Assembly (NCBI GenBank): GCA_022703505.1
Contig: JAKLDN010000001.1
Location: 219,389-283,388, forward strand
Reading direction: 5' to 3'
DNA from: Spirochaetota bacterium
GTDB taxonomy: Bacteria > Spirochaetota > Spirochaetia > Treponematales > UBA12059
Length of the DNA: 64,000 nt
Shown here: positions 2,491 through 53,535 of the stretch, in pieces
How the letters are laid out: each line of letters begins with the position of its first letter
Position numbering within the stretch: the stretch's first letter is position 1
Position numbers and translations under genes: made by a program
The notes under the pieces: generated by a model
Seen by the model: the letters and a program-made list of their open reading frames with translations, nothing else
Told to the model about the DNA's origin: nothing
Databases searched by the model: none

Positions 2491-3932
2491 GAAGCGTCTC
2501 CTTCGGGTTCGAGAAGGTAGATCACGCTGGGGCCCTCGACCCCCTTCAGGGCCGTCTTGAAGGGACCCCGGAACGAGAACCCCGGCGGCGTGCCGGCCGC
2601 GTCCCGGGCGTCCCGGGCCACCAGGATCTGTCCCGGCTTGGCCAGGCCGCAGAGCCGGGCGGCTATGTTGACCGAGGCTCCGATGACGGTGAAGTCCGCC
2701 CGGCGGGCCGAGCCGATCATGCCCTGGATCACCTCTCCGCAGGCGATGCCCGCCCCCAGGGCCAGGCCGTCGTAGGCTTCTCCGCCTTTCCGGGCCGCGG
2801 CCATGATGGCAAGGGCGGCGGAGCAGGCCCGGGCGGGGCTGTCCTCCCCCGAGAAGACCGCCACCACCTCGTCCCCCACGAACTTGTCCACGTCCCCCTG
2901 GTGCTCGTGGATGATCCGGGACTGCTCCTCCAGGAGCTTGTTGAGGATTCCGACCACCCGTTCCGGGTCGTGGGAACCCGTATAAGAGGTGAAGCCCCGG
3001 ACGTCCGTGAAGAGCAGGGTCTTCCGGACCCGCTTGGGCTCCTGGGAATCCTGGATCGCCCCGAGGGTGCCCGCGGAGACGTACTTGGTCAGTTCGGAGC
3101 GCTCCCGGAGTCCCCGGACCATGTCGTTCACCTGCCGTCCCAGCCGGGCGATCTCGTCGTTTCCCCGGACGCTGACGACTCCTCCGAAGTCCCCCTGGGC
3201 CACCCGTTCGCAGACCTTTCCGATGGCCGCGACGGGGGCGGCTACTCCCCGGTTCATGATGCTCCCCAGCGCCGCGGCCAGGATGATGGTCAGGACCAGG
3301 AAGCCCGCGCCGCCGGAGGCCAGGGCGAGATTTTCGGACCGGACGAAGGAACTGACGTCGAACTGGACCCCGATGACTCCGCGGATGGTGTGGTCGGAGC
3401 CGTGGCAGGCCGTACACCGGGGAAGGTTGATGAGGGGCCGGTAGATCTTGATGTAGACCGCCGCATCGTCCTCCTGGCGGAAGAACACGTCCTGGGGGGG
3501 CATGGACACCGCCTTGGGAAAGTGGACGCTGTCCGCGGGCATCTGCATCTCCAGGGCCGGGGACGATCGGGGGGCGAACTTTTCCCTGCGGATGTTCGCG
3601 TTGACCTCCTGGATGGTCCGGTTGTCGGAGAAGGCAATCTCCCCGTTCCGCCGGAACAGGGAGATCCGGACCTTGGGGTTGGCGCCCTCGATCTCCCGGA
3701 AGAACTGCACCGCGATCGGGGCCTCCCCGGGAAGCATGAAGTTCTCGATGGCGGTCTGGAGCATGGCCGCTTCCTGGTTCAGGCTCTCCCGGGTGACCTC
3801 CTGCCGGGAACTCGTGAGCACCAGGCCGAACATCAGGGCCGCTATCCCGAGGCCGACCGTCAGGGCAATCACGAGGATCCGGATGATCTTGGCCGCCAGG
3901 GTCGTCGTGCGGTGAGGGCGCATCGTTTCCAT
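2487..3932 (-). CDS. membrane adenylate/guanylate cyclase: heme-c (CTACH, DUF3365/Tll0287-like) periplasmic sensor, HAMP, class III cyclase domain
   Basis: This 481-aa ORF has two TM segments flanking a domain with a CTACH motif. A HAMP domain follows (APVAAIGKVCERVAQGDFGG), then a cyclase core (LLFTDVRGFTSY, FVGDEVVAVF, TVIGASVNIAARL). Confidence 0.85.
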   Translation of the reverse strand: METMRPHRTTTLAAKIIRILVIALTVGLGIAALMFGLVLTSSRQEVTRESLNQEAAMLQTAIENFMLPGEAPIAVQFFREIEGANPKVRISLFRRNGEIAFSDNRTIQEVNANIRREKFAPRSSPALEMQMPADSVHFPKAVSMPPQDVFFRQEDDAAVYIKIYRPLINLPRCTACHGSDHTIRGVIGVQFDVSSFVRSENLALASGGAGFLVLTIILAAALGSIMNRGVAAPVAAIGKVCERVAQGDFGGVVSVRGNDEIARLGRQVNDMVRGLRERSELTKYVSAGTLGAIQDSQEPKRVRKTLLFTDVRGFTSYTGSHDPERVVGILNKLLEEQSRIIHEHQGDVDKFVGDEVVAVFSGEDSPARACSAALAIMAAARKGGEAYDGLALGAGIACGEVIQGMIGSARRADFTVIGASVNIAARLCGLAKPGQILVARDARDAAGTPPGFSFRGPFKTALKGVEGPSVIYLLEPEGDAS

Positions 3933-13515: not shown

Positions 13516-14305
13516 GCCGGTCCCCCGCCGTGTAGCCCAGGCGCCGGTCCGGCCGGTTGGCGCCGTGGAAGTCGCTGCCCGCGGTCACCCGGAAGCCCAG
13601 GTCCCGGGCCATCTTCTCCAGGCGCTGGCAGTGCCCCGGCCGGGCGGTCGGGTGCCAGGCCTCGATCCCCGCGATCCCCAGCTCCTTCCATTCCAGGAAG
13701 AGGGACCCCAGGCGGGACCAGGACACGAAGAGGGACAGGGGATGGGCCACGATGGGCAGGCCCCCGGCCTCGTAGATCACCCGGACCGCCTCCTTCAGTT
13801 CCAGGCATTCCTTGGCCACGTAGAAGGGCCGGCCCTTGCCCAGGTACTTGTCGAAGGCGTCCTGCTTCTTACGGACCACCTTCCGGGCGATCAGGAAATC
13901 CGCGATGTGGGGCCGGCCGATCATGCCCCCCGCGGCGGCCTCCCGGAGTTCCCCGTAGTCTCCCTCGATCCCCGCGGCCCGCATCCGCTCGAAGATCCGC
14001 TCGTTGCGCTCATCCCGGGACCGGGCCAGGCGTCCCACCGCCTCCCGGATGGCCCCCTCGGTATCCCGGAGGTCCAGGCCCAGGAGGTGGAACTCCCCGG
14101 GTGAGAAGGCCACCTCGATCTCCACCCCCGGGATGAAGCGGAGGCCCCTCCGCAGGGCTTCCGCCCGGGCCTCCGCCAGGCCCGAGAGGGAGTCGTGGTC
14201 CGTGAGGGCCAGGGCCGTGAGCTTGCGGTCCGCGGCCAGATCTGCCAGGGCCTCGGGATCGTAGGTCCCGTCGGAGGCGGTGGAGTGGGTGTGCAGGTCG
14301 ATCAC
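13478..14305 (-). CDS. PHP-domain phosphoesterase (TrpH/YciV-like)
   Basis: The N-terminus VIDLHTHSTASDGTY is followed by ALTDHDS. The GTG start at 14305 has a GGGGAG 8 nt upstream and overlaps the upstream stop (GTGA). Confidence 0.8.
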   Translation of the reverse strand: MIDLHTHSTASDGTYDPEALADLAADRKLTALALTDHDSLSGLAEARAEALRRGLRFIPGVEIEVAFSPGEFHLLGLDLRDTEGAIREAVGRLARSRDERNERIFERMRAAGIEGDYGELREAAAGGMIGRPHIADFLIARKVVRKKQDAFDKYLGKGRPFYVAKECLELKEAVRVIYEAGGLPIVAHPLSLFVSWSRLGSLFLEWKELGIAGIEAWHPTARPGHCQRLEKMARDLGFRVTAGSDFHGANRPDRRLGYTAGDRPIADSYLEALDR

Positions 14306-15108
14306 CGTGAAAGCTCCCCGGTGCGGCCGAAGACCCGGACCGGAACCCCCGGGGCGCGGCGGGACACGAGGTCCGCGGCGGCCGAAAGATCGGCTTCCGG
14401 CAGGGGGGAGGTCCGGCCCTCCGGGGAGGGACGGGCCTGGGTATAGAGGTGGATCTCCAGGAACCGGGCCCCCCGGCCGAGGACGTCCTCCACCAGCCCG
14501 GCGTAGTCGGCGAGGTCCGCGTCCGAGGGTCCCCGGCCGTCCAGGGTGCAGAGCATGGTCTGGACGATCACGGCATGGGCCGAGGAAAAGGACAGGATCC
14601 CCTCCACGACATCCCGGAAGGGGACGCGGCTGCGGCTCATCCGGCCGTACCACTCCTCGTTCCCCCCGTCCAGCTTGGCCCAGATACGGAGGCCCGCCTC
14701 GTCCACGCAGCGCCCCAGGAGGGCCGCGGTTTCCGGATGCCCCAGGGTGGTGGAATTGGTGATCAACACCAGATCCGCCCCGGGAGCCCAGCGGTCCCGG
14801 GCGGTCCGGATCGAGGCCAGGGCGGATCCCAGGTGGGGCGACAGGGTGGGCTCCCCGCTCCCGCTCAGGGTGAGGTCCCGGAGGGGAAGGTCCGGGGGGA
14901 AGGAGGGGTAGTCCACCTCGAAGAACTCAGCGAGCTCCCTGTCGAGATCCTCCGGCCGGAAGGGGGGCTCCCCGGGAAACGGGAAAATCTCGCAGTAGGG
15001 ACAGTCGAAGTTGCAGGTCTTGCGGTCCGGAAAGAGATCCACCCCCAGGGACAGGCCCCCGGCTCGGCGGGAGACCACGGGGTAGATCAGCTCCAGGGGA
15101 GTGAACAT
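14302..15108 (-). CDS. radical SAM domain protein
   Basis: A CNFDCPYC (CxxxCxxC) cluster motif lies near the N-terminus, followed by GSGEPTL. Confidence 0.8.
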   Translation of the reverse strand: MFTPLELIYPVVSRRAGGLSLGVDLFPDRKTCNFDCPYCEIFPFPGEPPFRPEDLDRELAEFFEVDYPSFPPDLPLRDLTLSGSGEPTLSPHLGSALASIRTARDRWAPGADLVLITNSTTLGHPETAALLGRCVDEAGLRIWAKLDGGNEEWYGRMSRSRVPFRDVVEGILSFSSAHAVIVQTMLCTLDGRGPSDADLADYAGLVEDVLGRGARFLEIHLYTQARPSPEGRTSPLPEADLSAAADLVSRRAPGVPVRVFGRTGELSR

Positions 15109-15237
15109 GGATATAGACTAACTCCGTAGCCGGGGACGGAGCAAGGAGGAGGTCCGGAGGATCTTCACAAGCCTCGTACTGCCGGCGCGGGAGGTACCTC
15201 TTGACAGGTACGCCGCGAGTGTGTTTCTATGCAAAGT

Positions 15238-15321
15238 ATGATTACCCTGGGTACGGGAAACATCAATCGCCTCCATCATCACGGGCACCACGGGTCGCGG
15301 TCGCGGCACGGCGGGAGGTAG
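15238..15321 (+). CDS. hisL: his operon leader peptide (27 aa, MITLGTGNINRLHHHGHHGSRSRHGGR)
   Basis: This small ORF is not in the track. Six of its 27 codons are His, five of them in HHHGHH at 15274-15291. It lies directly upstream of two terminator hairpins and hisG. Confidence 0.6.
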   Translation: MITLGTGNINRLHHHGHHGSRSRHGGR

Positions 15322-15356
15322 GATCGTACCGAGAGGTGCATCGAACCGAACGACGG

Positions 15357-15389
15357 GGCGCCGACCGCGAGGTCGGCGCCTTTATTTTT
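15357..15389 (+). terminator. attenuator terminator T1
   Basis: GGCGCCGACC-GCGA-GGTCGGCGCC followed by TTTATTTTT. Confidence 0.75.
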
Positions 15390-15390
15390 A

Positions 15391-15429
15391 GGGGCGCCGG
15401 CCGTAGTGGACCGGCGCCCCCGTTTTTTT
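15391..15429 (+). terminator. attenuator terminator T2
   Basis: GGGGCGCCGG-(10-nt loop)-CCGGCGCCCC followed by CGTTTTTTT. It ends 18 nt before the hisG ATG. Confidence 0.75.
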
Positions 15430-15447
15430 CGACGCGAGAGGACGGAT

Positions 15448-16314
15448 ATGGACGAAGCGAAGGTCTTGAAGATCGCCCTGCCCAAGGGGCGCATGCAGGA
15501 AGGGGTGTTCCGCCTCCTTTCGGACGCGGGCCTGCCCATCAAGGGGGACGAGCGGGACTACCGGCCCCGCCTCCCCTCCCCGGACCTGGACGCCAAGATC
15601 CTGAAACCCCGGAACACCCTGGAGATGCTCCACGCGGGCACCCGGGACCTGGGATTCGCGGGCTCCGACTGGGTGGAAGAGCTGGGGGTCGAGCTGACGG
15701 ACATGCTGGACACGGGGCTGGACCCCGTGCGCCTGGTGGCCGCGGCCCCGGTGGCCATCCTGGAGGACGGCCGCCTGCCCCGCCGCCCCCTGGTGGTGGC
15801 CAGCGAGTACGAGAACATCGCCCGCCGCTGGATCGCCGGCCGGGACCTGGACGCCACATTCGTCCGTTCCTACGGGGCCACCGAGGTCTTCCCCCCGGAC
15901 GACGCGGACTGCATCGTGGACAACACCGCCACGGGCTCGACCCTCCGGGCCAACGGCCTCGAGATCGTGGACGAGCTCCTGCGGAGCTCGACCCGCCTCT
16001 ACGCCAACCCCCGGTCCCTGGAGGACCCCTGGAAGCGGGACACCATCGAGGCCATCGTCCTCCTTTTGCGGAGCGTCCTGACCGCCCGCAGCCGGGTCAT
16101 GCTGGAGCTGAACGTGGACACCTACAAGCTGGACTCGGTCATCGCCATCCTGCCCTGCATGCGGGAGCCTACGGTCTCCCCCCTCCGGGGTGGGGACGGG
16201 TACGCGGTCAAGGTGGCGGCGCCCCGGGACTCCCTGGCGGCCCTGATCCCGGAGATCCGGAGGCGGGGCGGGACGGACATCATCGTCACCCAGCCCATGA
16301 GGATCGTGCCGTGA
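15448..16314 (+). CDS. hisG: ATP phosphoribosyltransferase, long form with C-terminal regulatory domain
   Basis: The start MDEAKVLKIALPKGRM and the motifs DLGFAGSDWV and DNTATGSTLRANGL are present. The C-terminal HisG_C-like domain implies no HisZ is needed. Confidence 0.9.
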   Translation: MDEAKVLKIALPKGRMQEGVFRLLSDAGLPIKGDERDYRPRLPSPDLDAKILKPRNTLEMLHAGTRDLGFAGSDWVEELGVELTDMLDTGLDPVRLVAAAPVAILEDGRLPRRPLVVASEYENIARRWIAGRDLDATFVRSYGATEVFPPDDADCIVDNTATGSTLRANGLEIVDELLRSSTRLYANPRSLEDPWKRDTIEAIVLLLRSVLTARSRVMLELNVDTYKLDSVIAILPCMREPTVSPLRGGDGYAVKVAAPRDSLAALIPEIRRRGGTDIIVTQPMRIVP

Positions 16315-17405
16315 ATACCGCGGACGAGCGGGACGGGTACCGGGCCCAGGAACGGCCGGTCGTAGGCTACGTCCCTCCCGCCCGGGACCCCCGGATCCGG
16401 TGGTTCCTGGACGCCAACGAGGGCCGCCCCTCCCGGGCCGCCCTGGCCGCCCTGGCGGGAGCGGCGACGATGGAAACCTCCCGCCGCTACCCCCGCACCG
16501 CGGAACTGGAGGCGGTCATAGCGGCCCGGCCCAAGGCGGGGTACGAGCCCCTTTCCCCCTCCCGGGTCCTGGTGACCGCGGGAGGGGACGATGCCATCGC
16601 CCGGGCCTGCCGGGTCTTCCTCAAGCCCGGGGACACCCTGGTGGTCTTCGAACCGGCCTTCGAAATGTACTCCATCGGCGCCCGCCTTTCGGGCGCCCGG
16701 ACCGTCGGGGTGCCCTGGCCCCCGGGGGAGCCCTTCCCCCTGGAAGCCGCGATCGAGACGGCCCGATCCTGCCGGGCCGCCGCTGTGGCCCTGGTCAATC
16801 CCGCCAACCCCGCGGGGGGACTGGCCTCCCCGGAGGTAACAGAGGAGCTGATGGACGCCCTCCCGGATACGAGCGTCTGGGTGGACGGGGCCTACGCGGA
16901 CTTCTCGCGGACCGATTCCCTGGCCGCGGCCCTGTCCCGGCCCAACGGCCTGGCCCTGCGGTCCTTCTCCAAGACCTACGGACTCGCGGGCCTGCGGGTG
17001 GGCTGGGCCGCGGGCACTCCGGAGACCATCGCGGCCCTGCGCGCCGCGGGGGATCCCTTTCCCGTGGCGGGCCCCTCCCTGGCCGCGGCCCTGGCCGCCC
17101 GGAGCCCCGAGGGGGAGGCGGAGACTTCCCGCATCGTGACCCGGCTGGTCCGGGAACGGGAGACCCTGTACCGCCTGCTCGGGGACCTCGGTGCCCGGCC
17201 CTATCCGTCGGAGACGAACTTCGTCCTGGCCCGGGTGAAGGATCCCTCGGGCCTCAAGGAAGCCCTGGCCTCTCGGGGCGTCGCCATCCGGGCCTATCCG
17301 GGGCGTCCGGGCCTCGAGGCGATGATCCGCATCAGCGGCCCCGCGGACCGGGAGGGCTTCGGAGTCCTGGCCCGGGCCCTGCGGGAATCGAAGGAGTACC
17401 TATGA
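16311..17405 (+). CDS. hisC: histidinol-phosphate aminotransferase
   Basis: The GTG start overlaps the hisG stop (GTGA). The PLP-lysine motif RSFSKTYGLAGLRVGW and NPANPAG are present. Confidence 0.85.
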   Translation: MNTADERDGYRAQERPVVGYVPPARDPRIRWFLDANEGRPSRAALAALAGAATMETSRRYPRTAELEAVIAARPKAGYEPLSPSRVLVTAGGDDAIARACRVFLKPGDTLVVFEPAFEMYSIGARLSGARTVGVPWPPGEPFPLEAAIETARSCRAAAVALVNPANPAGGLASPEVTEELMDALPDTSVWVDGAYADFSRTDSLAAALSRPNGLALRSFSKTYGLAGLRVGWAAGTPETIAALRAAGDPFPVAGPSLAAALAARSPEGEAETSRIVTRLVRERETLYRLLGDLGARPYPSETNFVLARVKDPSGLKEALASRGVAIRAYPGRPGLEAMIRISGPADREGFGVLARALRESKEYL

Positions 17406-18010
17406 GCGACACGATCTCCGTTCCGGCCCTTCGGAGGGCGTCCCTGCGTCGGGAGACCCGGGAAACCCGGATCGAGGCCTCCCTGGACCTCGCGCCCGGG
17501 GAGGTGAAGGTGGACACGGGCATCGGCTTCCTGGACCACCTCCTCTCGTCCCTGGCCTTCCACGGGGGATTCTCCCTGGCCCTGGCCTGCCGGGGGGACC
17601 TGGCCGTGGACGACCACCACACGGCGGAGGACTGCGGCCTCGTGCTGGGGGACCTCGTGCGCCAGGCCCTGGGGGACCGCTCGGGGATCCGCCGCTTCGC
17701 CTCCGCCTACGCCCCCCTGGACGAGGCCCTGGCCCGGGCGGTGGTGGACATCTCCGGCCGGCCATTCGCCCGTGTCGACCTGAAGCTGGCCCGGGACTCC
17801 GTCGGGACCCTGGCCTGCGAGAACATCCCCCACGTCGTCGCGAGCTTCGCGACCCGGGCGGGGATCACGGTCCACCTGGAGGTCCTGTACGGGGACAACG
17901 ACCACCACAAGGCCGAGGCGGCCTTCAAAGCCCTGGCCCTGGCCCTCCGGGAGGCCTGGGCCCTCTCGGGCTCCGGCGCGGTGCCCAGCGCCAAGGGGGT
18001 CCTGGCATGA
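17402..18010 (+). CDS. hisB: imidazoleglycerol-phosphate dehydratase
   Basis: There is an ATGA overlap with hisC. Motifs are GIGFLDHLL, DDHHTAEDCGL and GDNDHHKAEAAFKA. Confidence 0.9.
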   Translation: MSDTISVPALRRASLRRETRETRIEASLDLAPGEVKVDTGIGFLDHLLSSLAFHGGFSLALACRGDLAVDDHHTAEDCGLVLGDLVRQALGDRSGIRRFASAYAPLDEALARAVVDISGRPFARVDLKLARDSVGTLACENIPHVVASFATRAGITVHLEVLYGDNDHHKAEAAFKALALALREAWALSGSGAVPSAKGVLA

Positions 18011-19485
18011 GGACGGCCGTCGTCCGCACCGGCACCGCCAACCTGGCCTCCGTCCTGGCGGGGCTCCGGAGGGCCGGGGCCGAGCCCTACGTCACCGAGG
18101 ATCCCGGGGATGTCCTGCGGGAGGGCCGGGTGATCCTGCCCGGGGTGGGCTCCTTCGGGGCGGCCCTGGCCGAGCTCCGCTCCCGGGGCCTGGACCGGGC
18201 CCTGGCGGAGCGCTTCCGGGCCGGCAGGCCCCTGGCGGGGTTCTGCCTGGGCATGCAGCTCTTTTTCGAGGCCAGCGAGGAGAGCCCCGGGGTCCGGGGC
18301 CTGGCCCTCCTTCCCGGGACGATCCGGAAGTACCCCGACACCGTGCGCACCCCCCGGCTGGGCTGGGGGGCCGTCCTTCCCGACCCCGGCTCGGGCTGCC
18401 TGGAGCCCGGGTGGGCGGCCTTCGCCAACTCCTACCGCCTGGTCGAGCCGCCCCCGGGCCTGCGCACCGCCTGGGCGGATTACGCGGGCCCCTTCGCGGC
18501 CGCCCTGGAGAGGCCGGGCCTCCTCCTCTGCCAGTTCCACCCGGAGCTCTCCGGGGCCTGGGGGAAGGCCCTCCTTTCCCGGTGGCTCGAGGGAGCCGGG
18601 GCGGCGGACGGATTGACGGCCGAGGGCCCCGGGGCCCGGGTATCCCGCCCCCCCGCCGAGCCCCTGTCGGGCACCCGGTCCGTCCGGGTCATCCCCTGCC
18701 TGGACGTGGACGCGGGCCGCGTGGTCAAGGGCACCCGGTTCCTGGACCTCAAGGACGCGGGGGATCCCGCCGAGCTGGCCGCCCGGTACGAGGGCGAGGG
18801 GGCGGACGAGATCGTGCTATTGGACATCACCGCGGGGCTCGAGGGCCGGGCCACCCGGGCGGACACGGTCCGCCGGGTCCGGGCCGCCCTGGGCATCCCC
18901 CTGACCGTGGGGGGAGGGATCGGATCCGTGGCGGACGCGGCGGTCCTCTTCGAGGCGGGGGCGGACAAGGTATCCGTGAACTCCAAGGCCGTCCGGGATC
19001 CCGCCATCCTGACGGAACTGGCGGAGCGCTTCGGGGTCCAGGCGGTGGTGATCGCCGTGGACGCCGCGAGGCGACCGGACGCCGCAAGGCGACCGGACGC
19101 GGCCGGACGCCTGTCCGGCGCCAGGCCGGAAGGCGCCTCCCCCTGGGAGGTGACGGTGGACGCGGGGCGGACCCGGACGGGCCTGGACCCCGCGGCCTGG
19201 GCCCGCCGGGCCGTCGAGGCGGGGGCCGGGGAGGTCCTCCTGACCGGACGGGACCGGGACGGCACGGGGCTGGGCTACGACCTGGACCTGGTGTCCGAGG
19301 TGGCCCGGGCGGTGCCCGTGCCCGTGGTGGCCTCCGGGGGAGCGGAAACCCCCCGGCAGATGTACGAGGGTGTCGCGGCCGGGGCGGCCGCGGTCCTGGC
19401 GGCCGGGACCTTCCATTTCGGGCGCCGCACGATACACGAGGTCAAGGCATACTTGGCCGAAAGACAGGTGGAGGTAAGACCATGA
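18007..19485 (+). CDS. hisHF: fused imidazole glycerol phosphate synthase (HisH glutaminase fused to HisF cyclase)
   Basis: A single 492-aa ORF. The N-terminal half has GFCLGMQL and QFHPE (the triad glutaminase). A linker of about 30 aa follows, then the HisF half with RVIPCLDV and GADKVSVNS. Confidence 0.85.
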   Translation: MRTAVVRTGTANLASVLAGLRRAGAEPYVTEDPGDVLREGRVILPGVGSFGAALAELRSRGLDRALAERFRAGRPLAGFCLGMQLFFEASEESPGVRGLALLPGTIRKYPDTVRTPRLGWGAVLPDPGSGCLEPGWAAFANSYRLVEPPPGLRTAWADYAGPFAAALERPGLLLCQFHPELSGAWGKALLSRWLEGAGAADGLTAEGPGARVSRPPAEPLSGTRSVRVIPCLDVDAGRVVKGTRFLDLKDAGDPAELAARYEGEGADEIVLLDITAGLEGRATRADTVRRVRAALGIPLTVGGGIGSVADAAVLFEAGADKVSVNSKAVRDPAILTELAERFGVQAVVIAVDAARRPDAARRPDAAGRLSGARPEGASPWEVTVDAGRTRTGLDPAAWARRAVEAGAGEVLLTGRDRDGTGLGYDLDLVSEVARAVPVPVVASGGAETPRQMYEGVAAGAAAVLAAGTFHFGRRTIHEVKAYLAERQVEVRP

Positions 19486-20792
19486 TCGTTCCTTCCATAG
19501 ACCTGATGGGCGGCCGGGCCGTCCAGCTCGAGGGCGGAGAGACCCTCAGGATCGACGCCGGGGACCCCCGGCCCAAGGCCGCGGAGTTCTCCCGGGTCGG
19601 GGAGCTCGCCGTGATCGACCTGGACGCGGCCCGGGGGGAGGGGGACAACCGCCGCCTGGTGGAGGACCTCGTCTCGGCCTATCCCTGCCGGGTGGGCGGG
19701 GGCATCCGGGACTACGAGACCGCGGTCCGCCTCCTGGACGCGGGGGCCCGGAAGGTTATCCTGGGGACCGCGGCCCGGCCGGACCTCCTTTCGCGCCTGC
19801 CCCGGGACCGGGTGATCGCCGCCCTGGACGCCCGGAACGGGGAAGTTGTGGTGGAGGGTTGGCGAACCCGCACGGGGGCCTCCGTGGCGGACCGGATCCG
19901 GGAGTTGGCCCCCTACGTCGGGGGCTTCCTGGTGACCACCGTGGAACGGGAGGGACGGATGGCCGGGGCGGACCTGGCCGCGGCGGCGGACGTCGTCCGC
20001 ATAGCCCGGGAATGCCGGGAGGACCTCCGGATCACCTGGGCCGGAGGCGTCACGTCGGCCGAGGAAGTGGCCGAACTGGACCGCCTGGGGGCGGACGCCC
20101 AGGTCGGGATGGCCCTGTACTCCGGCAGGCTCTCCCTGGCGGAAGCCTTCACGGCCCCCCTGGCTTCGGACCGCCCCGACGGGCTCTGGCCCGTGGTGGT
20201 CTGCGACGAAGCCGGGATCGCCCTGGGCCTCGTGTGGGGCGACCGGGAGAGCGTGGCGGAATCCCTGAAGCGCGGCCGGGGGGTCTACCGGTCCCGGACT
20301 CGGGGGCTCTGGGAAAAGGGTGCCTCCTCGGGGAACACCCAGGACCTGGTCCGCATCGAGGTCGACTGCGACCGGGACGCCCTCCGCTACGTGGTCCGCC
20401 AGAACGGCGGCGGGTTCTGTCACCTGGGCACCCGCACCTGCTTCGGCCCCGACCAAGGCCTGGGGGCCCTGGACCGGACCATCCGGGGCCGCCAGGAATC
20501 CTCCCCCCCGGGTTCCTACACCCACCGGCTTTTCACGGAACCGGGCCTCCTGTCCGCCAAGATCCGGGAGGAGGCCGCGGAACTCGCGGAGGCGGAGGGA
20601 CCCGTCCGGGCCGCCGAGGAAGCCGCGGACCTCGTCTACTTCGCCCTGGTGAAGCTCCGGGCCGAGGGGGCGTCCCTGGCGGATGTGGAACGCATCCTGG
20701 ACCGGCGGGCCCTGAAGGTTGTGCGGCGCCCGGGGAACGCCAAGCCGGCGTTCCAGGAGGAGGGAGGCACCCGGTGGACCGGAATCCACTGA
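19482..20792 (+). CDS. hisA-hisIE: fused ProFAR isomerase / PR-AMP cyclohydrolase / PR-ATP pyrophosphatase (HisA-HisI-HisE)
   Basis: A single 436-aa ORF. The HisA part has MIVPSIDLMGGRAV and VIDLDAA. The HisI part has SRTRGLWEKGASSGNTQ, DCDRDAL and CHLGTRTCF. The HisE part has GSYTHRLF and EEAADLVYFALV. There is an ATGA overlap with hisHF. Confidence 0.85.
   Translation: MIVPSIDLMGGRAVQLEGGETLRIDAGDPRPKAAEFSRVGELAVIDLDAARGEGDNRRLVEDLVSAYPCRVGGGIRDYETAVRLLDAGARKVILGTAARPDLLSRLPRDRVIAALDARNGEVVVEGWRTRTGASVADRIRELAPYVGGFLVTTVEREGRMAGADLAAAADVVRIARECREDLRITWAGGVTSAEEVAELDRLGADAQVGMALYSGRLSLAEAFTAPLASDRPDGLWPVVVCDEAGIALGLVWGDRESVAESLKRGRGVYRSRTRGLWEKGASSGNTQDLVRIEVDCDRDALRYVVRQNGGGFCHLGTRTCFGPDQGLGALDRTIRGRQESSPPGSYTHRLFTEPGLLSAKIREEAAELAEAEGPVRAAEEAADLVYFALVKLRAEGASLADVERILDRRALKVVRRPGNAKPAFQEEGGTRWTGIH

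Positions 20793-52236: not shown

Positions 52237-53535
<1,299 letters not shown>

What the first reader, a model, noticed from the sequence alone, without database searches (positions are those of the whole stretch)
15201..15447. His-codon leader peptide and two tandem terminators upstream of hisG: a classical ribosome-mediated attenuator
**Seen in the sequence.**
- An unannotated 27-codon ORF at 15238-15321 encodes MITLGTGNINRLHHHGHHGSRSRHGGR. Five of six consecutive codons at 15274-15291 are His.
- Two intrinsic terminators follow: T1 at 15357-15389 and T2 at 15391-15429. The hisG ATG is at 15448.

**Mutually exclusive pairings, found by hand.**
- UCGCGGUCG (15295-15303, inside the leader ORF just 3' of the His run) is the exact complement of CGACCGCGA (15362-15370, the T1 5' arm plus loop).
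- The T1 3' arm GGUCGGCGCC (15371-15380) can pair with GGCGCCGGCC (15393-15402, the T2 5' arm) with one G.U pair.

**Inference.**
- If the ribosome stalls at the His codons, pairings 1:2 and 3:4 form, neither terminator forms, and transcription reads through.
- If the ribosome reaches the stop codon it masks region 1, so T1 forms, with T2 as a backup.

This is the enterobacterial hisL logic in a compositionally very different genome. A TTGACA at 15201-15206 may drive it. No SD precedes the leader ATG, so the leader may be translated from a leaderless transcript.
Basis: partly seen in the sequence, partly recalled or inferred. Interest (0 to 1): 0.72.

Follow-up and report, generated by a model that had tools for sequence, protein, structure and literature searches.

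The report
Histidine leader attenuator upstream of hisG
A 27-codon histidine-rich mini-gene followed by two transcription stop signals sits in front of the histidine-synthesis operon of this spirochaete; it is a real, conserved ribosome-sensed switch, but of a kind known since the 1970s.

Summary
The ORF is at 15238-15321 (MITLGTGNINRLHHHGHHGSRSRHGGR). It is followed by T1 (15355-15382 plus U tract) and T2 (15391-15420 plus U7), then hisG at 15448.

It is not chance. About 0.003 windows with at least 5 His in 6 codons are expected in the 64 kb. All 31 distinct spirochaete relatives collected also carry a His-run ORF, the invariant segment GCGGTCGCG after it, and T1.

With a ribosome placed on His codons 1-3, it is the predicted fold in 31 of 31.

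It is present wherever a second terminator exists.

The -35 box lies 34-38 nt before the ATG in 30 of 31, and no Shine-Dalgarno motif was seen, which supports leaderless translation.

The element matches no Rfam family. A profile built from it does find hisG leaders in other phyla that share the terminator core and the promoter-to-ATG spacing.

Verdict: a genuine His-responsive leader-peptide attenuator, and a new member of a known kind. Nothing here is experimental.

The parts
15201..15206 (+). -35 box TTGACA of the leader/his operon promoter
   Evidence: TTGAC[A/G/C/T] ends up 34-38 nt (mode 37) upstream of the leader ATG in 30 of 31 spirochaete leaders. In other phyla a -35-like hexamer lies 35-39 nt upstream in 30 of 35 leaders.
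15224..15231 (+). Presumed -10 region (TTTCTATG), poor match to consensus
   Evidence: Sits 17-18 nt after the -35 box. Relatives have TATACA, TATATG, TATTGT or TAGTGT at the same place, 6-8 nt before the ATG. The promoter scan finds no consensus site in the window. No start-site data.
15238..15321 (+). Leader ORF, 27 codons plus TAG, probably translated from a leaderless or nearly leaderless mRNA
   Evidence: The ORF with a His run is kept in all 31 relatives. This ATG, not the one at 15229, is the one that is conserved and lies at the fixed distance from the -35 box.
15274..15291 (+). Regulatory His codons CAT CAT CAC GGG CAC CAC
   Evidence: 0.0027 such windows expected by chance. The first two codons are CAT, which accounts for 1 of the 12 His codons in hisG, hisC, hisB and hisHF. 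CTCCATCATCAY is nearly invariant.
15295..15305 (+). R1, the 5' strand of the antiterminator (UCGCGGUCGCG)
   Evidence: The core GCGGTCG is invariant in 29 of 29 sequences although it is read in different frames in the two subgroups. It pairs with 15359-15370 in the folds with a stalled ribosome. The 7-bp core is paired in 100% of cells.
15322..15342 (+). Hairpin H2 directly after the stop codon; tip of the antiterminator stem
   Evidence: Local fold -9.2 kcal/mol. A hairpin of different sequence is predicted at this position in all 31 relatives.
15242..15257 (+). 5' part of the ORF, complementary to H2 (15324-15340); possible anti-antiterminator
   Evidence: Pairs with H2 in the ribosome-free minimum-energy fold. 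The complementarity is kept by four different sequence pairs in the window's subgroup: GGUACG/CGUACC, ACAGGA/UCCUGU, UCGGAA/UUCCGA, UUCCGGAA/UUCCGGAA. Weak or absent in the other subgroup.
15355..15389 (+). Terminator T1: stem 15355-15366/15371-15382, loop GCGA, U tract to 15389
   Evidence: Found by the scan. -25.5 kcal/mol. 94.5% of cells paired and 3 pairs with changes on both sides across 29 sequences. It is the only consensus helix RNAalifold predicts.
15359..15370 (+). 3' strand of the antiterminator (T1 5' arm plus the loop)
   Evidence: The first two loop bases (GC, 15367-15368) are invariant in 29 of 29 sequences. That is expected if they pair with R1 and not if they are only a loop.
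15391..15429 (+). Terminator T2: stem 15391-15402/15408-15420, then CG and U7 (15423-15429)
   Evidence: -27.8 kcal/mol. The only T run of at least 7 on the + strand of the window. A U-tailed T2 is present in the close relatives and in some distant ones.
15371..15402 (+). Alternative hairpin: T1 3' arm (15371-15384) with T2 5' arm (15389-15402)
   Evidence: -27.3 kcal/mol as a local hairpin. The duplex scores z = -4.9 against shuffles. 7-9 of 9 positions are complementary (8-9 in all but L008) in every lineage with a T1-like second hairpin, and 6-8 of 9 (mostly 7) elsewhere.
15437..15450 (+). hisG Shine-Dalgarno (GAGAGGA) and start codon (15448)
   Evidence: Only 18 nt separate the T2 U tract from the hisG ATG, which leaves no room for a separate promoter.

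Best explanation
**What it is.** A histidine-responsive, ribosome-mediated transcription attenuator of the operon hisG-hisC-hisB-hisHF-hisAIE.

**Start of the transcript.** Transcription starts at or within a couple of bases of the ATG at 15238. A ribosome probably begins translating the 27-codon leader directly at the 5' end.

**When His-tRNA is scarce.**
- The ribosome stalls on the first His codons (15274-15282) and covers roughly 15259-15292.
- Segment R1 (15295-15305) stays free. It pairs with the T1 5' arm and loop (15359-15370) as soon as these are made.
- The result is a long antiterminator stem with hairpin H2 at its tip, so T1 cannot form.
- The unpaired T1 3' arm (15371-15380) then captures the near-identical T2 5' arm (15393-15402), so T2 cannot form either.
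- RNA polymerase runs into hisG.

**When His-tRNA is plentiful.**
- The ribosome runs over R1 and on to the stop codon (15319), melting R1 and then the inner strand and H2.
- T1 folds and transcription ends at 15381-15389.
- Polymerases that escape meet T2 at 15423-15429.

**What is shown.** The sequence features, their conservation, the complementarities, and the predicted folds.

**What is inferred.**
- That the leader is translated.
- Where transcription starts.
- That the choice between the folds is kinetic.
- That read-through responds to histidine.
- That the relay to T2 operates.
For: **Position**
- The upstream gene is divergent, and only 18 nt separate T2 from the hisG ATG. hisG can therefore be transcribed only through T1 and T2.

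**Not chance**
- 0.0027 such His windows are expected in the window.

**Conservation**
- Every spirochaete relative examined has a His-run ORF before hisG, across HisG identities of 59-100%.
- The ORF, its stop and the hairpin after the stop are kept while the non-His codons vary.

**RNA-level constraint on R1**
- GCGGTCGCG is invariant, yet it is read as S-R-S-R in one subgroup and as A-V-A in the other.

**Antiterminator**
- The 7-bp core is paired in 29 of 29 sequences. The only change is U:A to U:G, and the A-to-G change is matched by U-to-C in the T1 3' arm.
- The first two T1 loop bases are invariant.
- In transcripts cut before the T1 3' arm, with a ribosome on His codon 1, 2 or 3, R1:T1a is the predicted pairing in 31 of 31 sequences. 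It weakens at His 4-5.
- In other phyla the equivalent strand co-varies with the terminator's upper stem and loop: L013, L015, L038, L064, L040.

**Energies for the whole window leader**

| Ribosome position | T1+T2 (kcal/mol) | Antiterminator + T1b:T2a (kcal/mol) |
|---|---|---|
| Stalled at His 1-2 | -85 to -86 | -82.3 |
| At the stop codon | -71.2 | -64.8 |

**T1**
- Found by the scan, with compensatory changes at 3 pairs.

**Relay to T2**
- The T1b:T2a hairpin is -27.3 kcal/mol and the duplex scores z = -4.9.
- T2a matches T1b at 7-9 of 9 positions (8-9 in all but L008) wherever a T1-like second hairpin exists.
- In L039 and L128 a C-to-U change in T1b faces a G-to-A change in T2a.

**Promoter and leaderless start**
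- The -35 box lies 34-38 nt from the ATG in 30 of 31 sequences.
Against: - There is no experimental evidence of any kind: no start site, no 3' ends, no ribosome footprints, no histidine response.
- At equilibrium T1 forms under every ribosome position modelled, with probability 0.86-0.94 in the window. The mechanism therefore rests on an assumed kinetic order of folding.
- Within the spirochaetes R1 never varies, so the antiterminator has no change on both sides.
- 12 of the 31 distinct leaders (10 of the 29 aligned) were fetched with a pattern that fixed the His codons and GCGGTCG. That inflates the apparent invariance. The rest, fetched through HisG alone, show the same.
- R1 ends 16 nt before the stop codon. 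A ribosome waiting at the stop would not cover R1, and the folding model still lets the 9-bp helix form in that state.
- In the window's subgroup the ribosome-free truncated transcript also folds into the antiterminator. Default termination without translation is therefore not predicted, unless the pairing of the 5' part of the ORF with H2 intervenes.
- The -10 region is poor.
- The similarity of T2 to T1 could be a simple duplication. In that case T1b:T2a complementarity comes for free and does not prove selection for a relay.
Confidence: 0.85

Rival explanations
1. The two hairpins are ordinary constitutive terminators, or insulators, of a separate small transcript (a small-protein gene or small RNA). 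hisG is expressed from elsewhere.
For: T1 and T2 look like strong intrinsic terminators. At equilibrium T1 always forms.
Against: - Only 18 nt lie between the T2 U tract and the hisG ATG, and the upstream gene is divergent. No other promoter position is available.
- The small ORF, the His run and the terminator are found specifically in front of hisG in spirochaetes and in other phyla.
- R1 and the T1 loop bases are conserved and complementary.
Confidence: 0.04
2. It is an attenuator, but the sensor is not a translating ribosome. A protein, an uncharged tRNA (T-box-like) or a metabolite binds the leader RNA, and the His codons are incidental.
For: - The nucleotide sequence of the His-codon block and of R1 is conserved even at synonymous positions, which could mark a binding site.
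- His T-boxes exist in Firmicutes and Actinobacteria (PMC9413887).
Against: - No T-box or riboswitch model matches, even at E up to 10.
- An intact ATG-to-stop frame with 4-7 His codons is kept in about 65 leaders whose other codons, and even the sequence around the His run, differ between phyla.
- The promoter-to-ATG spacing that would expose the ATG at the 5' end is conserved.
Confidence: 0.04
3. It is a ribosome-mediated attenuator at T1 only. T2 is a recent duplicate acting as a fixed extra terminator or a stability element, and the T1 3' arm:T2 5' arm pairing has no regulatory role.
For: - T2a is nearly a copy of T1a, so complementarity to T1b follows from duplication alone.
- Many relatives and most other phyla manage with one terminator.
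- In several relatives the T2 hairpin has no U tract.
Against: - A 12-bp G+C stem followed by U7 that could not be bypassed would cap operon expression.
- T2a tracks T1b through lineage-specific changes: L014/L100 with A/U, L039 and L128 with U facing A.
- The T1b:T2a hairpin (-27.3) is as stable as T2 itself (-27.8) and is synthesised first.
Confidence: 0.25
4. The main control is on hisG translation or mRNA stability rather than on transcription termination.
For: - The T2 U tract can pair weakly with the purine-rich hisG Shine-Dalgarno.
- Relatives without a U-tailed T2 have further hairpins, one of which can sequester the Shine-Dalgarno: L001 GUCCUUUC...GAAAGGAC.
Against: - T1 with a U tract is present in nearly all spirochaete leaders (L005's tail is weak) and in 23 of 35 other leaders.
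- The U-tract:Shine-Dalgarno helix is made largely of G-U pairs, worth about -6 kcal/mol.
Confidence: 0.05

Closest known systems
Enterobacterial his operon leader (hisL; Rfam His_leader RF00514)
   Same: - A short ORF with a run of His codons lies between the promoter and hisG.
- A chain of mutually exclusive hairpins ends in an intrinsic terminator.
- Read-through occurs when the ribosome stalls for lack of His-tRNA.
   Different: - No sequence or structure match to the Rfam model.
- 5 His in 6 codons rather than 7 in a row (the E. coli count is from my own knowledge).
- No Shine-Dalgarno; the start is probably leaderless.
- The stop codon lies 16 nt beyond the antiterminator strand.
- Two tandem terminators.
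- About 69% G+C.
E. coli trp leader, the classical 1:2 / 2:3 / 3:4 model (Yanofsky 1981, as summarised in PMC4007540 and PMC1183508)
   Same: - The antiterminator shares the 5' arm of the terminator.
- The decision depends on where the ribosome is when that arm emerges.
- The terminator is the more stable fold, so the choice is kinetic.
   Different: - In the window's subgroup no clear region 1 pairs with the antiterminator strand.
- The ribosome-free truncated transcript folds into the antiterminator.
- A pairing between the 5' part of the ORF and hairpin H2 may take the place of region 1.
- The sister subgroup and other phyla do have the classical His-codon:region 2 hairpin.
Leaderless leader-peptide attenuators: Corynebacterium ilvB (PMC5784534, PMC11857589), 14 predicted in Deinococcus deserti (PMC4007540), mycobacterial poly-Cys short ORFs (10.1101/834739)
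   Same: The leader ORF starts at the 5' end of the transcript with no Shine-Dalgarno. Regulatory codons are followed by alternative structures.
   Different: - Different phyla and, in the examples read, different amino acids.
- In those cases the start site was mapped. Here the leaderless start is inferred only from promoter spacing.
His leader peptides upstream of hisZ/hisS in Firmicutes (PMC2965389)
   Same: A His-codon short ORF plus terminator outside Proteobacteria, found by comparative analysis.
   Different: A different downstream gene. No sequence similarity is expected, and this was not tested here.
Unnamed cross-phylum hisG leaders seen here (Planctomycetota, Acidobacteriota, Myxococcota, Bdellovibrionota and others; L013-L086)
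   Same: - His-run ORF before long-form hisG.
- The same terminator core, CGCCGGCC..GGCCGGCG followed by UUUCGUU.
- A -35-like box 35-39 nt before the ATG.
- The antiterminator strand is complementary to the terminator's 5' arm and loop.
   Different: - In those leaders the ORF ends in ..VAG*/..RAG*, with the stop codon inside the antiterminator strand (GUGGCCGGGUGAUGGUG).
- That strand also pairs with the His codons.
- Most have a single terminator.
- In the spirochaetes the ORF runs 5-8 codons further.

Membership tests
Ribosome-mediated (leader-peptide) transcription attenuator | Short ORF between the promoter and the first biosynthetic gene, enriched in codons for the pathway's end product | tested here: met
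   27-codon ORF with 5 His in 6 codons, directly upstream of hisG. 0.0027 such windows expected by chance.
Ribosome-mediated (leader-peptide) transcription attenuator | Intrinsic terminator between the leader ORF and the structural gene, on the same strand | tested here: met
   T1 found by the scan, -25.5 kcal/mol, with compensatory changes across 29 sequences. T2 -27.8 kcal/mol followed by U7.
Ribosome-mediated (leader-peptide) transcription attenuator | Alternative antiterminator pairing that uses the terminator's 5' arm, with its other strand just downstream of the regulatory codons | tested here: met
   15295-15305 pairs with 15359-15370. The core is paired in 29 of 29 sequences. It is the predicted fold in 31 of 31 with a stalled ribosome. 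The equivalent pairing co-varies in other phyla.
Ribosome-mediated (leader-peptide) transcription attenuator | The outcome depends on ribosome position (stalled at regulatory codons versus at the stop codon) | tested here: inconclusive
   Only modelled. The antiterminator state is within 3-4 kcal/mol of T1+T2 when the ribosome is stalled at His 1-2, and 6.4 kcal/mol worse at the stop. At equilibrium T1 forms in all states, and the kinetics cannot be computed with these tools.
Ribosome-mediated (leader-peptide) transcription attenuator | Read-through rises when the cognate amino acid or charged tRNA is limiting | not testable with these tools
   Needs Term-seq, reporters or in vitro coupled transcription-translation.
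Ribosome-mediated (leader-peptide) transcription attenuator | The leader ORF is translated | not testable with these tools
   Indirect support only: the frame, start and stop are kept in 31 spirochaete and 35 other leaders while other codons vary.
Rfam His_leader (RF00514, enterobacterial hisL) | Covariance-model score at or above the family's gathering threshold | tested here: not met
   No His_leader match in 14900-15700 even at E up to 10. No Rfam family at gathering score in 20 related loci.
T-box leader (tRNA-sensing attenuator of his genes in Firmicutes and Actinobacteria) | T-box covariance-model match, with specifier loop and T-box sequence | tested here: not met
   No T-box hit at E up to 10.
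Leaderless leader-ORF attenuators (Corynebacterium, Deinococcus, Mycobacterium type) | Transcription start at, or 1-2 nt before, the leader start codon, with no Shine-Dalgarno | tested here: inconclusive
   The -35 box lies 34-38 nt before the ATG in 30 of 31 sequences, and relatives have good -10 boxes 6-8 nt before the ATG. No purine-rich motif was seen before the ATG when reading the sequences; this was not scored formally. No start-site data, and the -10 in the window itself is poor.

The most novel reading that the evidence does not exclude
**A wider family.** The element may be one branch of a large, so far uncatalogued family of leaderless His-leader attenuators.
- The family accompanies long-form hisG across at least six phyla.
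- Its members share a nearly identical terminator core (CGCCGGCC..GGCCGGCG UUUCGUU), and the antiterminator strand co-varies with the terminator loop.
- This suggests either great age or horizontal spread of the leader together with hisG.

**A relay in this lineage.** Here the terminator has been duplicated.
- Because the copy's 5' arm is complementary to the first terminator's 3' arm, a single stalled ribosome would disarm both terminators through a relay of hairpins.
- That would give a multiplicative, steeper response.
Probability: 0.5. Interest if true: 0.5.

Novelty: new member of a known kind. Interest (0 to 1): 0.35.

Why it matters
**What it gives**
- A regulatory annotation for the his operon of an uncultured, high-G+C spirochaete lineage.
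- An extension of leader-peptide attenuation to a phylum for which I found no such report in the paper library. As of 2010 it was documented only for Proteobacteria, Actinobacteria and Firmicutes (PMC2965389).

**Wider points**
- The same leader design, with a promoter-to-ATG spacing that implies a leaderless start, recurs before long-form hisG in many phyla and is absent from Rfam 15. A curated model could annotate hundreds of genomes.
- A duplicated terminator that stays under control through arm-to-arm complementarity is a simple, testable way of stacking attenuators.

None of this changes how attenuation is understood.

Tried and rejected
**Tests that turned out uninformative**
- Equilibrium folding of the complete leader, with the ribosome masked at each His codon or at the stop: T1 forms in every case. 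This says nothing about a kinetic switch, so I replaced it with folds of transcripts cut before the T1 3' arm.
- RNAalifold on the 29-sequence alignment returns only T1.

**Searches that found nothing**
- Rfam at a permissive threshold gives only chance-level hits, such as a viral frameshift hairpin at E 0.12 on the T1 stem.
- Rfam at gathering scores finds nothing in 20 related loci.
- The sigma-70 scan finds no promoter.

**Leads dropped**
- The metagenome pattern scan returned 45 loci. 24 of them are chance matches inside coding DNA and were discarded.
- A first constrained fold used the wrong register for T2 ('T1+T2 forced -70.0'). It was redone.
- A second His-rich window (about 52.87 kb, minus strand) was checked as a possible second leader. 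It is an out-of-frame reading inside a gene.
- GCCUCC (15269-15274) pairing with GGAGGU (14-19 of 153xx) was considered as a classical region 1:2. It appears in the minimum-energy fold, but more distant relatives carry a mismatch and show no compensation, so I do not rely on it.
- The pairing of the 5' part of the ORF with H2 is supported only in the window's subgroup. The mean z over all 31 sequences is -1.3.

**Literature**
- Searches found no description of a spirochaete His leader.
- Subscription-journal papers, for example the comparative surveys of attenuators by Vitreschak and by Lopatovskaya and colleagues that I recall, are not in the library and could not be checked.
Full report
**1. 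The observation**

- TTGACA lies at 15201-15206 and the ATG at 15238. There is also an in-frame ATG at 15229, which is the start that the ORF list reports.
- CTC CAT CAT CAC GGG CAC CAC spans 15271-15291, and TAG lies at 15319-15321.
- T1 is the stem GGGGCGCCGACC/GGUCGGCGCCUU (15355-15366 with 15371-15382), with loop GCGA and a U tract running to 15389.
- T2 is 15391-15402 with 15408-15420, followed by CG and U7 (15423-15429).
- The hisG ATG is at 15448, behind GAGAGGA.
- Both hand-found complementarities are exact as stated.

Independent checks agree.
- The terminator scan finds T1 on its own.
- The scan misses T2, probably because of its larger bulged loop. T2 still folds to -27.8 kcal/mol and carries the only T run of at least 7 on the + strand of the window.
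- The 219-nt region folds better than all 200 shuffles, z = -3.6.
- His codons are 2% of codons over all six frames, so 0.0027 windows with at least 5 His in 6 codons are expected in 64 kb.
- The only other such window is an out-of-frame reading of an ACC repeat inside a gene.

**2. Context**

- The DNA is 69% G+C.
- HisG is identical to a protein from a 'Spirochaetia bacterium' assembly.
- hisG (long form, HisG + HisG_C) is followed by hisC, hisB, a fused hisH-hisF and a fused hisA-hisI-hisE.
- The gene upstream (14302-15108) is a radical-SAM protein on the opposite strand.
- The 339-nt spacer is therefore a divergent promoter region, and the + strand hairpins cannot terminate anything upstream.
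- Only 18 nt separate the T2 U tract from the hisG ATG. The operon can therefore be transcribed only through T1 and T2. That alone requires a way to read through them.

**3. Relatives**

I gathered hisG loci in three ways.
- Exact-protein look-ups gave L001-L006.
- A genome scan with a HisG alignment gave 80 genomes.
- A metagenome scan used a DNA pattern built on the leader. Of its 45 loci, 21 proved to be true hisG leaders and the rest were chance hits inside genes.

This gave 31 distinct spirochaete-type leaders, with HisG identity from 59 to 100%. All have a short ORF with a His run.

Two subgroups exist.
- **Group A** contains the window. Its peptide ends ..LHHHGHHGSRSRxGGR.
- **Group B** has the peptide MSNxxxxQxxHLHHHGHAxAVAMIVxx.

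Caveat: 12 of the 31 were fetched with a pattern that fixes CTCCATCATCAY and GCGGTCG. Their invariance at those positions is partly imposed. The 19 fetched through HisG alone show the same invariance.

**4. Promoter and start**

- TTGAC[A/G/C/T] lies 34-38 nt (mode 37) before the leader ATG in 30 of 31 sequences.
- Relatives have recognisable -10 boxes (TATACA, TATATG, TATTGT, TAGTGT) that end 6-8 nt before the ATG.
- No purine-rich ribosome-binding motif was seen before the ATG.
- This geometry puts the start site at, or 1-2 nt before, the ATG at 15238.
- It remains unproven. In the window's own lineage the -10 (TTTCTA/TTCTAT) is poor, and the scan calls no promoter.
- The ATG at 15229 falls inside the presumed -10 and is not conserved outside the closest relatives.

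**5. The antiterminator**

GCGGTCGCG, directly after the His run (R1; 15297-15305 in the window), is invariant in 29 of 29 aligned sequences. It is read in different frames in the two groups: TCG CGG TCG CG. in A and GCG GTC GCG in B. The constraint is therefore on the RNA, not on the peptide.

R1 is complementary to the upper half of the T1 5' arm plus the first loop bases.
- The 7-bp core is paired in 100% of cells.
- The single variable pair is U:A in 14 sequences and U:G in 15. The A-to-G change is matched by U-to-C in the T1 3' arm (A-U 14, G-C 15).
- The first two 'loop' bases of T1 (GC, 15367-15368) are invariant. A loop has no reason to be conserved, but a strand of an alternative helix does.
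- Because R1 never varies, there is no two-sided covariation for this helix within the spirochaetes.

T1 itself is 94.5% paired, with three pairs changed on both sides. It is the only helix in the RNAalifold consensus.

**6. Folding with a ribosome**

With the complete T1 present, T1 forms at equilibrium wherever the ribosome is placed. Its probability is 0.86-0.94 in the window. This is also true of the classical attenuators and only shows that the switch must be kinetic.

I therefore folded transcripts that end after the T1 loop, and masked A-site -15 to +12 for each ribosome position.
- With the ribosome on His codon 1, 2 or 3, R1 pairs with the T1 5' arm in 31 of 31 sequences.
- In the window the helix runs 15295-15305 with 15359-15370 and continues inward through short helices to hairpin H2 (15322-15342). 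It covers the whole T1 5' arm. Locally this structure is worth -41.8 kcal/mol.
- On His codons 4-5 the mask reaches R1 and the pairing fades.

The window values, in kcal/mol:

| Ribosome position | T1+T2 | Antiterminator + T1b:T2a |
|---|---|---|
| Stalled at His 1-2 | -86 to -85 | -82.3 |
| None | -92.0 | -87.2 |
| At the stop codon | -71.2 | -64.8 |

The alternative state is thus competitive, and it is penalised most when the ribosome has reached the stop. There the ribosome melts the inner strand and H2, leaving only the outer 9-bp helix.

A ribosome at the stop codon covers about 15304-15331 and does not cover R1. R1 is hidden only while it is being translated.

**7. What holds R1 when nobody stalls**

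- **Group B and other phyla.** The bases after R1 (GAUGAUCGU, or GGGUGAUGGUG elsewhere) are complementary to the His codons (AUCAUC). This gives the textbook 1:2 hairpin. Ribosome-free truncated transcripts of several group B members then leave the T1 arm unpaired with R1.
- **The window's group.** This hairpin is missing, and the ribosome-free truncated transcript folds into the antiterminator.
- **A possible substitute.** The 5' part of the ORF (15242-15257) is complementary to H2 (15324-15340) and pairs with it in the full-length minimum-energy folds.
  - The complementarity is kept by four different sequence pairs within group A.
  - It may act as an anti-antiterminator.
  - I rate this as plausible but unproven, and it is weak in group B.

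**8. T2 and the relay**

- T2's 5' arm (GGGGCGCCGGCC) is almost a copy of T1's (GGGGCGCCGACC). The T1 3' arm can therefore pair with it.
- As a hairpin, 15371-15402 is worth -27.3 kcal/mol, against -27.8 for T2. The duplex has z = -4.9 against shuffles.
- Across relatives, T2a complements T1b at 7-9 of 9 positions (8-9 in all but L008) in all group A members and in the group B members that have a T1-like second hairpin. It complements at 6-8 of 9 (mostly 7) where there is no such hairpin.
- T2 follows T1 through lineage-specific changes.
  - L014/L100 have A/U in both terminators.
  - In L039 and L128 a C-to-U change in T1b faces a G-to-A change in T2a, while T1a keeps G.
- A plain duplication would give the same complementarity for free, so this is moderate evidence only.
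- The logical argument is stronger. A 12-bp G+C stem with U7 that could not be bypassed would throttle the operon.
- In some relatives the T2 hairpin lacks a U tract. Its role there is unknown.

**9. Beyond spirochaetes**

- In the HisG-based genome sample, roughly 55 of the 80 genomes had a His-run ORF upstream of hisG; 35 of these, with an ATG-initiated His-run ORF, lie outside the spirochaetes.
- They include Planctomycetota, Acidobacteriota, Myxococcota, Bdellovibrionota, Krumholzibacteria and others.
- A sequence profile of the spirochaete leaders finds the region just upstream of hisG in about 25 of these loci, with E down to 3e-8.
- 23 of the 35 have a detectable terminator, nearly always with the same core: CGCCGGCC..GGCCGGCG followed by UUUCGUU.
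- Their ORFs tend to end in VAG*/RAG* (GUGGCCGGGUGA). This strand is complementary both to the His codons and to the terminator's 5' arm and loop.
- It co-varies with the loop: L013 ACG/CGU, L015 UCG/CGA, L038 GCA/UGC, L064 GAGCC/GGCUC, L040 GGAGAGAG/CUCUUUCU.
- 30 of the 35 have a -35-like hexamer 35-39 nt before the ATG, and only 6 have a Shine-Dalgarno-like motif.
- The window's element is thus a diverged branch of a broad family. In this branch the ORF was lengthened by 5-8 codons past the antiterminator strand.
- No Rfam family matches any of 20 such loci.

**10. Comparison with what is known**

- The logic is that of enterobacterial hisL and of the trp leader. Membership in Rfam His_leader was tested and not met.
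- Leader peptides had been documented in Proteobacteria and Actinobacteria, and were then found in Firmicutes (PMC2965389).
- Leaderless leader ORFs are described for Corynebacterium ilvB (PMC5784534, PMC11857589), for 14 predicted cases in Deinococcus deserti (PMC4007540) and for mycobacterial poly-Cys ORFs (10.1101/834739).
- I found no report for spirochaetes. Relevant subscription-journal surveys are outside the library.

**11. Verdict**

This is a genuine attenuator, correctly read by the first stage.
- It is a new member of a known kind.
- Its variant traits are a probably leaderless start, a stop codon displaced beyond the antiterminator strand, and two terminators linked by a relay.
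- It belongs to an uncatalogued cross-phylum family.
- Confidence that it is a His-responsive ribosome-mediated transcription attenuator is about 0.85.
- Confidence in the relay to T2 is about 0.6-0.7, and in the pairing of the 5' ORF with H2 about 0.4.
- Interest is moderate to low, at 0.35.

Noticed in passing
L013-L086 (for example L013 about 1240-1500, L033, L050, L064, L079): His-run leader ORFs lie upstream of long-form hisG in many phyla. They share the terminator core CGCCGGCC..GGCCGGCG UUUCGUU and a peptide end ..VAG*/..RAG*. Their promoter-to-ATG spacing implies a leaderless start. They appear to form one RNA family that is absent from Rfam 15.
   Followed up: partly
window 18007-19485 and 19482-20792: The his operon encodes a fused HisH-HisF (GATase + His_biosynth, 492 aa) and a triple fusion HisA-HisI-HisE (His_biosynth + PRA-CH + PRA-PH, 436 aa). 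No hisD lies between hisG and hisC.
   Followed up: partly
window 15448-19485: The his enzymes are poor in histidine. hisG has 1 His codon and hisC has none. Of the 12 His codons in four genes, 11 are CAC. The leader nevertheless begins its His run with two CAT codons, and these are conserved in nearly all relatives.
   Followed up: no
window 15422-15445: In the local fold, the U7 tract of T2 can pair with the purine-rich hisG Shine-Dalgarno (GUUUUUUUC with GAGAGGAC, mostly G-U pairs, about -6 kcal/mol). The same is predicted in L008, L103 and L107. This may be incidental.
   Followed up: no
L001 about 2940-3000; also L011, L002, L012, L105: Relatives whose T2 hairpin lacks a U tract carry a third G+C-rich hairpin (GGGGCGGGCCGG..CCCGCCCC). 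L001 also has a hairpin that can sequester the hisG Shine-Dalgarno (GUCCUUUC...GAAAGGAC).
   Followed up: no
L007 and L010, between T2 and hisG: About 65 extra nucleotides form three further perfect hairpins (GCCGGGUGCGGACCAUCCGGC, CGACGAAGC..GCUUCGUCG, GUCGCGGCC..GGCCGCGAC). They are absent from the window and look like an inserted repeat element.
   Followed up: no
window 15355-15420: In the complete leader the overall minimum-energy fold is neither T1+T2 nor the antiterminator. It is a nested structure, with T1 5' arm:T2 3' arm enclosing T1 3' arm:T2 5' arm (-95.9 against -92.0 kcal/mol). It can form only after T2 has been fully transcribed.
   Followed up: no
window about 52859-52876, minus strand: A second window with 5 His in 6 codons is a false positive: an out-of-frame reading of ACC repeats in a gene encoding ..[16 protein letters not shown].., which is serine hydroxymethyltransferase-like from my own knowledge.
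   Followed up: yes
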